From IMG/VR virus record IMGVR_UViG_3300034062_006701: a stretch of 64,000 bases of DNA; one strand, given 5' to 3'. Each line of letters opens with the position of its first letter. Within the stretch, counting starts at the first letter, position 1. The DNA comes from a virus (lineage: Duplodnaviria > Caudoviricetes). Below, one piece after another: positions 26,037 to 27,692 of this stretch. The notes below the pieces were generated by a model. It made no database searches. It worked only from the letters and a program-made list of their open reading frames with translations, and was not told the DNA's origin. Both the position numbers and the translations under genes were made by a program.

Positions 26037-27692
26037 TTATGCTGACCCAGGTGAAGGCGGTGTTGCTGACCCCGCTACGTATTGCTGAGAAGTTGATGAG
26101 CGTCCTGCGACAGATCGTGAATTAGGGAAATATGATACAGACATCTTTGGTTCGGAGCTCGGATATCCCTTATTTCCTACACGTACGCCGAGAGCGGTTG
26201 CAGCTGCAGCTGACATTTCACCAGCTGATGCTCCACGTGGTCCGACATCTGCTACACGGGCCCAGATCTGTTGCTTGTTACTCTGGTTTGTTACCAATGC
26301 CCAATCACCGGTTTTTATACCGTGAGCTTTTTGCGCGTCAGGTGATACAACTACGTACGGTACTTTGCTCGCGTCAACAGGTGTTCCGTTTAACCGTAGA
26401 CTTGTTTCAGGCTGCCAGTCTGGGTCATTATATGGGTTACCAGGAGCACCATCTGTATCAACTCTTAATTTACCTTCAAGTGTAACAGCACTTCCTAATT
26501 CATTCTCATCTGGTACACCACCTGTACCATCACCTATTAATTTACCATTTATAAACTTACTACCACCGGTTCCTGGTACAATAGCGCCATCTGGTGGTGT
26601 TGTGCTTGTAGCATCAAGAGGGGTGTCAGATGATGATCCGGTATTTAGAGGTTGTAGATTACCGGTTGTATTATTGTTAGCTAATTCAAAATTCTGCTGC
26701 TGAGCATATAATGTTTGCTCTGCTAAAGCATCATTTACTTCTTGGTCGCGAATTGCTTGAGATGCGTTTGCACGTTCTTCTGATGTTATTACCACGAAAT
26801 CCTTATCATCACTAGCTATAGGGAAGATGTCTCTTAGGTTCATTGCTGTTTGGTTTGCAATATTACTTACATACTGTATAAATCCGAAAATCTTCGCTTC
26901 TGCAAATATAGATGCAAGTTTATCTTTTAGCATACCTAGCGATTCGTTTATAGTTACAAAAGTTGGTAGATCATTAATTAAATTTAACCCATGAGATGTT
27001 GATGCGTCTGCTGCTAAATTTTGCTGCAATGTTAAATTCGTGTATCCTACTCCCATTAGGTTATGTCTCATGTATGTTGTTGTTTTTTGACTCAGGTCAT
27101 ACATAACGTTTCTAGTATTTGCGCTTATTTTATTTTCAAGAGATGCGGAATATGGTACTGGTACACCATAATACTCTTGATTAATATCAAATAGAGGTAA
27201 TGTTGAATCAAGCTGTAAGTATTTTGAATTTGCTATTATACCTATACTGTCACTAACATTATCAAAGTAATTATCATAGCTAAACGAGCCATTGTTATAA
27301 GTGTTAGAAGAAAACCGTGATATACTCGGTAGTTGGTTGTTTAAGATGTTGTCACCATAATATGATACCTGAGAGCTGTAACTTATTATTTCTTTATTTG
27401 AATTTTTTAATTTCTGGTACCAGTATAAAATATTTTCAATTGAAAAATCTGCTTGCTTAAAATATACACTATTTATATTTGAAAAAAATACGTTTAGTGC
27501 TGTAATCACATCACCTTGTTTAAAGGTGTTTCTGTAATCAATCGCTGCAGAAATTTCACTATCTGAAATCGTTTCAGGTGGAAGAGCTTGTCTTAGGGTT
27601 GTATCGTTAGCCAATAATTCAAAAGAATTTGTGGCGTCTAAATCTGTAATATTAGGCGCTACTGTAATTTCGTTTGTGTTAGGCTGTCTCAT
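26037..27692 (-). CDS. Baseplate hub-associated protein with C-terminal GH75-like (chitosanase-like) domain
   Basis: LRVDTDG...DPDWQPETSL...VDASKVPYVVV...GDWALV...ARVADVGP...GEMSAAAATALG matches the GH75 motif order. Confidence 0.7.
   Translation of the reverse strand: MRQPNTNEITVAPNITDLDATNSFELLANDTTLRQALPPETISDSEISAAIDYRNTFKQGDVITALNVFFSNINSVYFKQADFSIENILYWYQKLKNSNKEIISYSSQVSYYGDNILNNQLPSISRFSSNTYNNGSFSYDNYFDNVSDSIGIIANSKYLQLDSTLPLFDINQEYYGVPVPYSASLENKISANTRNVMYDLSQKTTTYMRHNLMGVGYTNLTLQQNLAADASTSHGLNLINDLPTFVTINESLGMLKDKLASIFAEAKIFGFIQYVSNIANQTAMNLRDIFPIASDDKDFVVITSEERANASQAIRDQEVNDALAEQTLYAQQQNFELANNNTTGNLQPLNTGSSSDTPLDATSTTPPDGAIVPGTGGSKFINGKLIGDGTGGVPDENELGSAVTLEGKLRVDTDGAPGNPYNDPDWQPETSLRLNGTPVDASKVPYVVVSPDAQKAHGIKTGDWALVTNQSNKQQIWARVADVGPRGASAGEMSAAAATALGVRVGNKGYPSSEPKMSVSYFPNSRSVAGRSSTSQQYVAGSATPPSPGSA

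What the first reader, a model, noticed from the sequence alone, without database searches (positions are those of the whole stretch)
26037..27692. GH75 chitosanase-like domain on a baseplate hub protein, in place of a T4-lysozyme-type tail enzyme
Seen: the C-terminal ~130 aa (about 26120-26480) follow the GH75 motif order and keep the acidic residues in DTDG and ADVGP...GEMS. The domain follows a T/S/P/G-rich linker, and the gene lies 2 nt downstream of the gp27-like gene. Known: GH75 enzymes are characterised mainly as fungal and actinobacterial chitosanases, and T4 carries a lysozyme on hub protein gp5. Inference: a virion-borne entry enzyme that may cut de-N-acetylated peptidoglycan or an amino-sugar surface polymer, a role I do not know to be established for GH75.
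Basis: partly seen in the sequence, partly recalled or inferred. Interest (0 to 1): 0.72.

Follow-up and report, generated by a model that had tools for sequence, protein, structure and literature searches.

The report
Chitosanase-type lysin beside phage baseplate hub
An uncultured freshwater T4-like phage encodes, right after its baseplate hub gene, a protein ending in a GH75 "chitosanase"-type enzyme domain that related phages swap for ordinary cell-wall lysozymes, so it is most likely a virion enzyme that cuts the host cell wall at entry, not a nutrient-releasing chitosanase.

Summary
ORF 26037-27692 (-) encodes 551 aa: a conserved N-terminal module (1-334), a G/T/P/S-rich linker, and a C-terminal double-psi beta-barrel (about 400-535). 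The barrel keeps the four GH75 acidic residues (D412, D414, D482, E492). Its best structural match is the soil-virus chitosanase V-Csn (VIA Z 11.2; family profile E 5e-31). The upstream gene, 2 nt away, folds as T4 gp27.

Sixty-eight same-locus homologues keep the N-module but carry different C-terminal domains: GH75-like, SLT-like, tail lysozyme (PF18013), glucosaminidase (PF01832) or unlabelled types. The N-module tree needs at least 27 swaps. In 11 relatives this gene is fused to the homologue of the next gene (389 aa), which places the enzyme between two structural modules. A separate GH24 endolysin lies in a lysis cassette.

Best reading (0.65): a baseplate-associated entry lysin that cuts peptidoglycan glycan strands. 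Not shown: virion incorporation, substrate, and any gp5-like fold (the N-module is helical and low-confidence, and there is no beta-helix).

Viral GH75 enzymes are published, but as "auxiliary metabolic" chitosanases. A DPBB lytic domain on a myophage hub is also published (A-1(L) gp15). This is a new variant of a known kind. Other notes in this scan report GH75-like domains in lysis cassettes and toxins elsewhere.

The parts
26037..27692 (-). Target gene, 551 aa (P0001): N-module, linker, GH75-like domain and a short S/T/P tail
26691..27692 (-). N-terminal conserved module (residues 1-334). No known family. Mostly helical in a low-confidence model. 41 invariant columns across 68 homologues
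   Evidence: no Pfam, PHROG, NCBIfam or PDB hit
26496..26690 (-). G/T/N/P/S-rich flexible linker (residues 335-399); the point at which C-terminal domains are exchanged
26088..26495 (-). GH75-like double-psi beta-barrel catalytic domain (residues 400-535)
26451..26459 (-). Codons D412-T413-D414 of the DTDG motif. These equal V-Csn D34 and D36. D414 is conserved in at least 90% of 98 relatives; D412 varies (mostly D or N)
   Evidence: PMC9485262
26217..26249 (-). Codons D482 to E492 (DVGPRGASAGE). These equal V-Csn D148 and the proton donor E157. Both are conserved in at least 90% of relatives
   Evidence: PMC9485262
27695..29374 (-). gp27-like baseplate hub protein, 559 aa, 2 nt upstream of the target
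   Evidence: AF2 pLDDT 84, pTM 0.85; Foldseek top hits T4 gp27, eCIS/VgrG/Mu gp44 hubs
24858..26027 (-). Downstream 389-aa gene, the C-module of the same unit. It is fused to the target's homologue in 11 longer relatives
29376..29738 (-). 120-aa small baseplate protein (PHROG families annotated baseplate wedge or sheath)
29772..31067 (-). 431-aa protein of unknown family, in the slot between the tape-measure-like gene and the hub
   Evidence: conserved synteny
31086..33662 (-). 858-aa tape-measure-like protein (repeats, hydrophobic Gly-rich stretch); first gene of the tightly packed block
   Evidence: sequence; inference
33670..33677 (-). TATAAATA (T4 late-promoter-like) 8 nt upstream of the 858-aa gene; likely start of the six-gene late block that includes the target
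   Evidence: inference
21784..22287 (-). gp25-like baseplate wedge gene, followed by gp6-like and PKD-bearing gp7-like genes
10224..10835 (+). Separate endolysin (PF00959 phage lysozyme) in a lysis cassette with a holin-like gene and a lipobox/TM spanin-like gene

Best explanation
The 551-aa protein is a tail-tip (baseplate-hub-associated) entry lysin of an uncultured freshwater T4-like myophage.

Proposed parts and roles:
- The conserved N-module, together with the product of the next gene (the 389-aa C-module), anchors it in or under the gp27-like hub. This is the genomic slot where contractile tails usually encode the central spike.
- The flexible linker presents a GH75-type double-psi beta-barrel glycosidase.
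- After the tail breaches the outer membrane of a Gram-negative host, this domain locally hydrolyses beta-1,4 bonds of the peptidoglycan glycan strand, so the tube can reach the inner membrane.
- By analogy with V-Csn, E492 would act as acid and D414 as base, with D412 and D482 positioning the sugar.

Shown: the domain's identity and intact acidic tetrad; the gp27-like neighbour; conserved synteny; repeated exchange with peptidoglycan-cleaving domains; fusion with the downstream gene in relatives; and a separate endolysin.

Inferred: presence in the virion, contact with the hub, peptidoglycan as substrate, and a hydrolytic (rather than lytic-transglycosylase) mechanism.
For: 1. Fold and residues. 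V-Csn is the best sequence and structure match. D414, D482 and E492 are conserved in at least 90% of 98 relatives.

2. Genomic position. The gene starts 2 nt after a gene that folds as T4 gp27. It lies in a tight minus-strand block from the tape-measure-like gene towards gp25, gp6 and gp7. The order is identical in related contigs L001, L002 and L009.

3. Functional replacement. Among 68 homologues sharing the N-module, the C-terminal domains are:
- GH75-like: 18, plus 7 divergent
- SLT-like: 21 (profile against PDB 6TA9, E 6e-8)
- PF18013 phage tail lysozyme: 3
- PF01832 glucosaminidase: 1
- two unlabelled types: 9 and 7
- two singletons
Some of these proteins match PHROGs annotated tape measure, endolysin or 'baseplate hub subunit and tail lysozyme'.

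4. Repeated swapping. The N-module tree needs at least 27 changes of domain type (the minimum possible is 8). The smallest well-supported clade around this protein already holds three types.

5. Fused relatives. Eleven longer relatives fuse N-module, lysin and the homologue of the downstream 389-aa gene (BLASTP E 2e-30). They sit at the same locus, with no separate downstream gene.

6. Separate endolysin. A GH24-type endolysin with holin-like and spanin-like genes lies elsewhere in the window. This enzyme is therefore not the lysis endolysin.

7. Other partners of the domain. Outside phages, relatives of the domain are fused to PG_binding_1, PG_binding_2 or PG_binding_3 modules and to RHS toxin repeats.

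8. Precedent. The hub of myophage A-1(L) carries a DPBB 'endoglucanase' domain that lyses EDTA-treated host cells (PMC10966104). This model aligns to that very domain (8KEA_A residues 278-393, Z 8.5).
Against: - No experiment or proteome shows the protein in virions.
- The N-module has no recognisable hub or spike fold. It models as helices at pLDDT 40-80, and there is no OB fold or beta-helix.
- The only biochemically characterised close relative (V-Csn) cleaves chitosan, and peptidoglycan was never tested (PMC9485262). Its acidic -2 subsite binds free amines of GlcN, which normal Gram-negative peptidoglycan lacks.
- The protein itself fails Pfam PF07335.
- Loop1, which is 'Domain-2' in V-Csn (72 residues), is only about 29 residues here (PMC9485262). 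The cleft, and therefore the substrate, may differ.
- Two of the alternative C-terminal types remain unlabelled.
Confidence: 0.65

Rival explanations
1. It is a virion-borne depolymerase for a non-peptidoglycan amino-sugar polymer of the host envelope. Candidates are partly de-N-acetylated PNAG-like exopolysaccharide, a GlcN-rich capsule or a sheath. On this reading it clears a path to the surface rather than cutting the wall.
For: The GH75 relative V-Csn is an endo-chitosanase whose acidic residues bind GlcN amines (PMC9485262). The catalytic tetrad is kept here. The host and its envelope are unknown.
Against: - Every labelled domain that replaces it at the same locus is a peptidoglycan glycan-strand enzyme: SLT-like, tail lysozyme, glucosaminidase.
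- Swaps occur between near-identical N-modules (94% and 90% identity), which probably share host types.
- Depolymerases are usually on fibres or spikes at the periphery, not next to the hub gene (own knowledge).
- Relatives of the domain are fused to PG-binding modules.
Confidence: 0.13
2. It is a non-catalytic or non-hydrolytic DPBB module, either expansin-like wall binding and loosening or a purely structural tip domain. On this reading the acidic residues are kept for sugar binding only.
For: Many DPBB proteins (expansins, kiwellin, loosenins, PA4485) appear among the structural matches at Z 7-8.6. Loop1, which forms half of the V-Csn cleft, is much shorter here.
Against: - The full D/N-D-D-E constellation, including the proton donor Glu and the proposed base Asp, is conserved in at least 90% of 98 relatives.
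- V-Csn stands clearly above the non-enzymatic DPBB matches (Z 11.2 against 8.6).
- The equivalents at this locus are enzymes.
Confidence: 0.08
3. It is an auxiliary metabolic chitosanase, as proposed for viral GH75 genes. On this reading it is released at lysis or displayed to free chitosan oligomers as nutrients for the host population.
For: This is the published interpretation of viral GH75 genes, and V-Csn has in-vitro chitosanase activity (PMC9485262).
Against: - The domain is covalently attached to a highly conserved module encoded inside the baseplate late block, 2 nt from gp27.
- It is interchangeable with lysozyme-type domains.
- In relatives it is embedded between two structural modules.
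- No signal peptide or metabolic neighbours are present.
Confidence: 0.03
4. It is virion-borne, but as an ejected or tube-lumen protein that travels with the tape measure. On this reading it is not a fixed hub or spike component. The enzyme still cuts the wall, but from inside the channel during ejection.
For: - The N-module is helical and low-confidence, like tape-measure or ejection proteins.
- Two homologues match a PHROG annotated as tape measure.
- The gene lies in the same block as the tape-measure-like gene.
Against: - The PHROG hits probably come from the SLT-like C-terminal domains, not the N-module.
- The gene sits after the hub gene, in the canonical spike slot (own knowledge of P2, Mu and eCIS gene order).
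- Nothing tested here separates the two locations.
Confidence: 0.1

Closest known systems
V-Csn, soil-virus GH75 endo-chitosanase (PDB 7TVL-7TVP; Wu et al. 2022, PMC9485262)
   Same: Phage origin. Double-psi beta-barrel core. The four acidic residues (D34, D36, D148, E157 correspond to D412, D414, D482, E492). The conserved Thr (T91 corresponds to T430). It is the best sequence and structure match.
   Different: V-Csn is a free-standing 224-aa protein read as an auxiliary metabolic gene. Here the domain is the C-terminal third of a baseplate-block protein. Identity is about 24%. Loop1 ('Domain-2', 72 residues in V-Csn) is about 29 residues here. The query misses Pfam PF07335. The substrate is untested.
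T4 gp5 (baseplate hub subunit with tail lysozyme) together with gp27
   Same: A wall-cutting domain encoded next to the gp27 hub gene and flanked by structural modules. T4 gp5 is cleaved after the lysozyme into gp5* and gp5C (own knowledge). Here the gene is split, or in relatives fused, at the corresponding point.
   Different: The GH24 lysozyme is replaced by a GH75-like DPBB. No OB fold or beta-helix was detected, and there is no sequence or profile similarity. The parallel is in logic, not demonstrated homology.
Hub gp15 of Anabaena myophage A-1(L) (PDB 8KEA; PMC10966104)
   Same: A DPBB-fold 'endoglucanase' domain carried by the baseplate hub, shown to lyse EDTA-permeabilised host cells. 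The model aligns to residues 278-393 of that domain (Z 8.5, rmsd 3.2 A, 108 residues).
   Different: In A-1(L) the domain is inserted into the gp27-like hub protein itself, beside lysozyme and peptidase domains. There is no profile-level sequence similarity to the GH75-like family (not among the hits).
Modular virion-associated peptidoglycan hydrolases / tail-associated lysins (reviews PMC6116005, PMC5380687)
   Same: A structural tail module plus an exchangeable muralytic domain, with a separate endolysin for lysis. PF18013, PF01832 and SLT-type domains occur in the orthologues.
   Different: A GH75-type catalytic domain does not appear in the papers I could search as a tail lysin. No GH75-like sequence was found in 50,697 GenBank phage records.
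DPBB lytic transglycosylases of bacteria (MltA 3D domain, RlpA/DPBB_1)
   Same: The same barrel fold acting on peptidoglycan glycan strands. One long relative has a weak DPBB_1 match.
   Different: These use a single catalytic Asp and make 1,6-anhydro ends (own knowledge). Here the GH75 acid/base pair is kept, which suggests hydrolysis. Relatedness to the unlabelled 'type D' domain is only hinted (hhalign probability 9.6%).

Membership tests
GH75 (Pfam PF07335 Glyco_hydro_75; CAZy family 75) | Match to the family HMM above its gathering score | tested here: not met
   There is no PF07335 hit for the whole protein or for residues 335-551, even at E <= 1. However, 80 of the 147 best HMMER relatives of the domain do match PF07335 (best E 7.6e-22). 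A profile containing this domain hits the GH75 enzyme V-Csn at E 5e-31. I therefore call it GH75-like, a distant branch, and do not file it as a GH75 member.
GH75 (Pfam PF07335 Glyco_hydro_75; CAZy family 75) | Catalytic Asp/Glu pair (V-Csn D148 and E157; A. fumigatus D160 and E169) in the GD-x-GP...GE-x-S block | tested here: met
   D482 and E492 in ADVGPRGASAGEMS align to V-Csn D148 and E157. Both are conserved in at least 90% of 98 relatives.
GH75 (Pfam PF07335 Glyco_hydro_75; CAZy family 75) | N-terminal D-x-D-G acidic pair (V-Csn D34 and D36) | tested here: met
   D412 and D414 in RVDTDG. D414 is nearly invariant. The first position varies (mostly D or N), and D/N variation is also reported for viral GH75 clades (PMC9485262).
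GH75 (Pfam PF07335 Glyco_hydro_75; CAZy family 75) | Double-psi beta-barrel fold closest to a solved GH75 enzyme | tested here: met
   AF2 domain pLDDT is about 80-88. Foldseek ranks 1-5 are V-Csn (E 7e-6). VIA gives Z 11.2, rmsd 3.3 A, 137 residues, clearly above other DPBB proteins.
GH75 (Pfam PF07335 Glyco_hydro_75; CAZy family 75) | Endo-chitosanase activity | not testable with these tools
   This needs an enzyme assay.
T4 gp5-type hub/spike lysozyme | N-terminal OB fold that docks in the gp27 trimer | tested here: inconclusive
   The N-module models as helices, but at low confidence (pLDDT 40-80). There is no PDB, Pfam or PHROG hit.
T4 gp5-type hub/spike lysozyme | C-terminal triple-stranded beta-helix needle after the lysozyme | tested here: not met
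   Only about 16 low-complexity residues follow the enzyme domain. The downstream 389-aa partner has no detectable beta-helix or PDB relative. Its fold was not modelled.
T4 gp5-type hub/spike lysozyme | Encoded with, or next to, a gp27-like hub gene | tested here: met
   There is a 2-nt gap to a gene whose model matches T4 gp27. The synteny is conserved in L001, L002 and L009.
Virion-associated peptidoglycan hydrolase (tail-associated lysin) | Muralytic domain on a protein encoded in the tail/baseplate module, distinct from the endolysin | tested here: met
   The gene lies in the baseplate block. A separate PF00959 endolysin lies at 10224-10835 with holin-like and spanin-like genes. Orthologues carry PF18013, PF01832 or SLT-like domains.
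Virion-associated peptidoglycan hydrolase (tail-associated lysin) | Physical presence in the virion and activity on peptidoglycan | not testable with these tools
   No cultured relative exists. This needs proteomics or cryo-EM and enzyme assays.

The most novel reading that the evidence does not exclude
GH75-like double-psi barrels may be a general, so far unrecognised class of peptidoglycan-cutting domain. On this reading, phages use them both as tail-tip entry lysins (this locus) and as endolysins (about 160-aa single-domain forms in lysis-cassette-like settings). Bacteria would use them as wall-targeting toxins (RHS tips, fusions to PG-binding modules). Many or most viral 'GH75 chitosanase auxiliary metabolic genes', possibly including relatives of V-Csn, would then be entry or lysis enzymes, and their chitosanase activity would be a side reaction.
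Probability: 0.42. Interest if true: 0.78.

Novelty: new variant of a known kind. Interest (0 to 1): 0.6.

Why it matters
Viral GH75 genes are a textbook example of experimentally 'validated' soil auxiliary metabolic genes, through the V-Csn structure and its chitosanase activity. Here the same catalytic module is hard-wired into the baseplate gene block of a widespread freshwater phage lineage. It is exchanged again and again with lysozyme-type domains.

If it cuts peptidoglycan, three things follow:
- It adds a new catalytic family to the repertoire of phage lysins, which matters for enzybiotic discovery.
- It shows how freely the entry enzyme at the hub or spike slot is swapped: at least 27 times in 68 sequences.
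- It calls for testing V-Csn-type 'AMGs' on cell walls before counting them as carbon-cycling genes.

The test is simple: express the domain and mutants, then assay them on sacculi and on chitosan.

Tried and rejected
- Pfam, PHROGs and NCBIfam on the whole protein. The only result was a sub-threshold Molydop_binding match, which is another DPBB family. It was rejected as a fold echo.
- tblastn of the whole protein, its C-terminal domain, a typical short GH75-like relative and the gp27-like neighbour against 50,697 GenBank phage records gave no match.
- The whole genome is not held.
- PDB profile searches found nothing for the N-module family, the gp27-like family by sequence, and the 'lysC' type. 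For 'type D' the only match was non-significant (E 0.24), and for the 389-aa protein there were only non-significant matches (best E 0.037).
- hhalign of the N-module profile against T4 gp28, gp26 and gp29 gave probability <= 0.2%. The single-sequence targets give this test low power.
- ESM Atlas look-ups for the N-module and for the 389-aa protein gave no usable hit.
- Complex prediction of the gp27-like protein with the N-module gave no verdict (score 0.00, partner fold uncertain). This is neither for nor against binding.
- A combined alignment of full-length proteins plus C-terminal fragments (A4) was discarded, because MAFFT placed the fragments on the N-module.
No IMG/VR-wide neighbour census was therefore made.
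- hhalign of 'type D' against GH75-like, and of 'lysC' against SLT-like, gave only weak hints (9.6% and 2.5%). These two types stay unlabelled.
- Sequencing-run search listed no RNA holder, so nothing can be said about expression.
- Contexts of three long bacterial GH75-like proteins (L003-L005) were cellular and uninformative for the phage question.
- A read-through fusion of the 551-aa and 389-aa ORFs was considered. They are in frame in the window and in L001, but out of frame in L002, so read-through is not conserved and was rejected as a general mechanism.
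Full report
WHAT IS THERE

The flagged ORF, 26037..27692 on the minus strand, encodes 551 aa. Its ATG lies 2 nt after the stop of a 559-aa ORF (...TAC TAA TA ATG...).

The window is a distant T4-like phage. It has T4-type terminase, sheath, gp25, gp6-like and PKD-bearing gp7-like genes, a clamp loader and a dUTPase. No whole genome is held. The large terminase is at most about 40% identical to any GenBank phage. The stretch recurs in freshwater and lake metagenomes from about 20 studies.

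THE C-TERMINAL DOMAIN

- Sequence. Against all PDB sequences the protein hits only the GH75 viral chitosanase V-Csn (E 0.002). ADVGPRGASAGEMS is aligned to GDVGPS-SKIGEGS, so D482 and E492 fall on V-Csn D148 and E157, the residues mutated in 7TVN and 7TVO.
- Relatives. An exhaustive HMMER search with residues 385-551 found 394 relatives at E <= 1e-3. Of the best 147, 80 carry Pfam PF07335 Glyco_hydro_75.
- Profile. A 98-sequence alignment headed by this domain hits V-Csn at E 5e-31. It also aligns RVDTDG to V-Csn's IDADG, that is D34 and D36.
- Conserved residues. Nearly invariant in the family are D414, G415, D423, T430, G462, D482, G484, P485, G491, E492 and S494. D412 varies (mostly D or N), and D/N variation is reported for viral GH75 clades (PMC9485262).
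- Structure. In the AlphaFold model, residues about 380-530 have pLDDT about 80-88. Foldseek ranks V-Csn first (E 7e-6), followed by kiwellin, expansins and other double-psi barrels. VIA-align gives V-Csn Z 11.2 (rmsd 3.3 A, 137 residues, 24% identity), against 8.6 for the next fold relative.

Two caveats apply. The protein itself does not reach PF07335, even at E <= 1. The Loop1 region, which is the 72-residue 'Domain-2' of V-Csn, is only about 29 residues here (PMC9485262). I call the domain GH75-like.

THE SURROUNDINGS

The upstream 559-aa protein gives a confident model (pLDDT 84, pTM 0.85). Its best matches are T4 gp27 (1K28_D, E 7e-15, TM 0.71 on the target) and then the hubs of eCIS, P1, Mu, pyocin and VgrG. 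The 'gp27-like' label is confirmed.

The gene order on the minus strand is:
- a tape-measure-like 858-aa gene, with a TATAAATA 8 nt upstream
- a 431-aa gene
- a 120-aa small baseplate protein
- the gp27-like hub
- the target
- a 389-aa gene
- after four inserted genes, gp25, gp6-like and gp7-like

In P2, Mu and eCIS-type tails the slot after the hub gene holds the central spike (own knowledge).

A separate endolysin (PF00959) lies at 10224-10835, behind a holin-like gene and a gene with a lipobox (LLTG-C) and a C-terminal membrane helix. This points to a Gram-negative host and shows that the GH75-like protein is not the lysis enzyme.

THE CARRIER

Residues 1-334 are highly conserved: 41 invariant columns in 68 homologues. 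They have no match in Pfam, PHROGs, NCBIfam, PDB or the ESM Atlas. They show no profile similarity to T4 gp26, gp28 or gp29. They model as helices of low confidence. No beta-helix follows the enzyme. The protein is hub-adjacent. It is not shown to be gp5-like.

THE KEY COMPARATIVE RESULTS

1. Domain types. Seventy metagenomic homologues share the N-module. The 68 that were aligned carry different C-terminal domains:
   - GH75-like: 18
   - a divergent GH75-like form: 7
   - SLT-like: 21 (profile against PDB 6TA9, E 6e-8)
   - PF18013 phage tail lysozyme: 3
   - PF01832 glucosaminidase: 1
   - two unlabelled types: 9 and 7
   - two singletons

2. Synteny. A GH75-type locus (L001) and a PF18013-type locus (L002) have the same gene order as the window.

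3. Swapping. A maximum-likelihood tree of the N-module needs at least 27 changes of C-terminal type (8 is the minimum possible; shuffled mean 40). The smallest well-supported clade around this protein (4 sequences, SH-aLRT 99) already holds GH75-like, divergent GH75-like and a lysozyme-like type. Their N-modules are 90-96% identical. The catalytic domain is a cassette exchanged at the linker, and every labelled alternative cuts peptidoglycan glycan strands.

4. Fusion. Eleven longer proteins (1017-1441 aa) begin with the same N-module. Three of them have the GH75-like domain at about 412-540. Two of the longer proteins were compared with the window's downstream 389-aa protein, and both end in a module homologous to it: P0351, one of the three GH75-bearing forms (BLASTP E 2e-30 over residues 62-388 against 752-1052), and P0345 (E 1e-20). 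The locus of P0351 has the usual order, with the fused gene directly after the gp27-like gene and no separate downstream gene. The 551-aa and 389-aa genes are therefore two halves of one unit. The enzyme lies between two structural modules, and the break comes right after the enzyme. T4 gp5 is cleaved at the corresponding point (own knowledge). This is a parallel of design, not a shown homology.

WHAT IT MOST LIKELY DOES

The protein is most likely a baseplate-associated entry lysin. The GH75-like barrel would cut the peptidoglycan glycan strand under the tail tip. The mechanism would be the inverting acid/base mechanism proposed for V-Csn, with E492 as donor and D414 as base.

Additional support:
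- Relatives of the domain in bacteria are fused to PG_binding_1, PG_binding_2 or PG_binding_3 modules and to RHS toxin repeats.
- The hub of myophage A-1(L) carries a DPBB 'endoglucanase' domain that lyses EDTA-treated host cells (PMC10966104). My model aligns to exactly that domain (Z 8.5).

Not shown: virion incorporation, contact with the hub (the complex prediction gave no verdict), the substrate, and hydrolase versus lytic transglycosylase chemistry.

Rival readings are listed with their tests: a depolymerase for an amino-sugar surface polymer, a non-catalytic barrel, an auxiliary metabolic chitosanase, and an ejected lumen protein.

COMPARISON WITH WHAT IS KNOWN

- Viral GH75 genes are published. 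V-Csn is solved, and 142 viral genes were catalogued. They are read as auxiliary metabolic genes for chitin turnover, and walls were never tested (PMC9485262). Later reviews and a soil-virome preprint still list the GH75 protein as a chitosanase, while warning in general that glycoside hydrolases may be lysis or entry enzymes (PMC12713726; bioRxiv 10.1101/2024.12.20.629349).
- I found no paper in the searchable library that links GH75 to peptidoglycan or to a phage tail.
- I found no GH75-like sequence in 50,697 GenBank phage records.
- Tail-associated lysins with exchangeable domains, and a DPBB lytic domain on a hub, are known.

I therefore rate this a new variant of a known kind.

BROADER LEAD, ONLY PARTLY FOLLOWED

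Single-domain GH75-like proteins of about 160 aa, without signal peptides, lie in phage-like contigs. One is near a Mu-type portal gene. Another lies directly after a lipoprotein (LPLTG-C) and small membrane ORFs, which looks like a lysis cassette. Unchecked notes from this scan report GH75-like domains in lysis cassettes, RHS toxin tips, T4SS pilin fusions and a gp5 OB-fold insert in other genomes. My own searches independently saw the RHS, pilin and PG-binding fusions. Together these suggest that the family is a general wall-cutting module.

VERDICT

Observation confirmed. Interpretation partly supported. Interest 0.6.

Noticed in passing
window 24858-27692 (-); L001, L002, L009: The 551-aa and 389-aa genes are a split form of one protein, which is a single 1017-1441-aa ORF in 11 relatives. 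In the window the two ORFs are in frame (TAA, three codons, ATG), and also in L001. They are out of frame in L002, so programmed read-through is not conserved.
   Followed up: partly
L009:9588-12374: A related phage carries four tandem genes of 226-231 aa that match Pfam Glyco_transf_29 (sialyltransferase family). They are inserted between the fused lysin gene and the dUTPase gene. This is an unusual family for a phage.
   Followed up: no
L008:4392-6480 and L007:6001-6474: GH75-like single-domain proteins of about 160 aa, without signal peptides, lie in phage-like contigs. In L008 the gene follows a lipoprotein (LPLTG-C), an 83-aa membrane protein and a 42-aa membrane peptide, which looks like a lysis cassette. 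These are candidate GH75-type endolysins.
   Followed up: partly
window 27470-27477 (-): A perfect TATAAATA lies inside the target gene (around codons 72-75). No in-frame ATG follows it, so it is probably chance. Other copies sit 5-15 nt upstream of the starts of structural genes: 739, 7881, 33670 and 39374.
   Followed up: partly
P0004, P0009, P0013, P0032, P0041, P0043, P0045 (same-locus homologues): A divergent GH75-like subtype keeps D-x-D-G and the later Asp and Glu. It has D-V-N-G in place of D-V-G-P and about 20-35 extra residues between Asp and Glu. Only P0004 reaches the family profile (E 2e-5).
   Followed up: partly
P0200, P0199, P0084 (relatives of the domain): Bacterial architectures seen: PG_binding_3 + GH75 + 2x PG_binding_1 (870 aa); RHS repeats + C-terminal GH75-like tip (514 aa); T4SS_pilin + GH75-like (538 aa).
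   Followed up: partly
window 9184-10835 (+): Lysis cassette: a 198-aa protein with lipobox LLTG-C and a C-terminal membrane helix (unimolecular-spanin-like), a two-helix holin-like protein, and a PF00959 endolysin.
   Followed up: partly
window 31086-33662 (-): The 858-aa tape-measure-like protein has three copies of a motif of about 45 aa (GKWLYDKAK..P.IGPL..AG.SI..G.W...F.YL..A..PL) after a Lys/Glu-rich head and a Gly-rich hydrophobic stretch.
   Followed up: no
window 6032-7879 (+) and 16383-19916 (-): A fibre protein with an Mtd_N head and a Peptidase_S74 intramolecular chaperone tail. Also a 1177-aa gp7-position protein with a PKD domain and a weak SGL/beta-propeller match.
   Followed up: no
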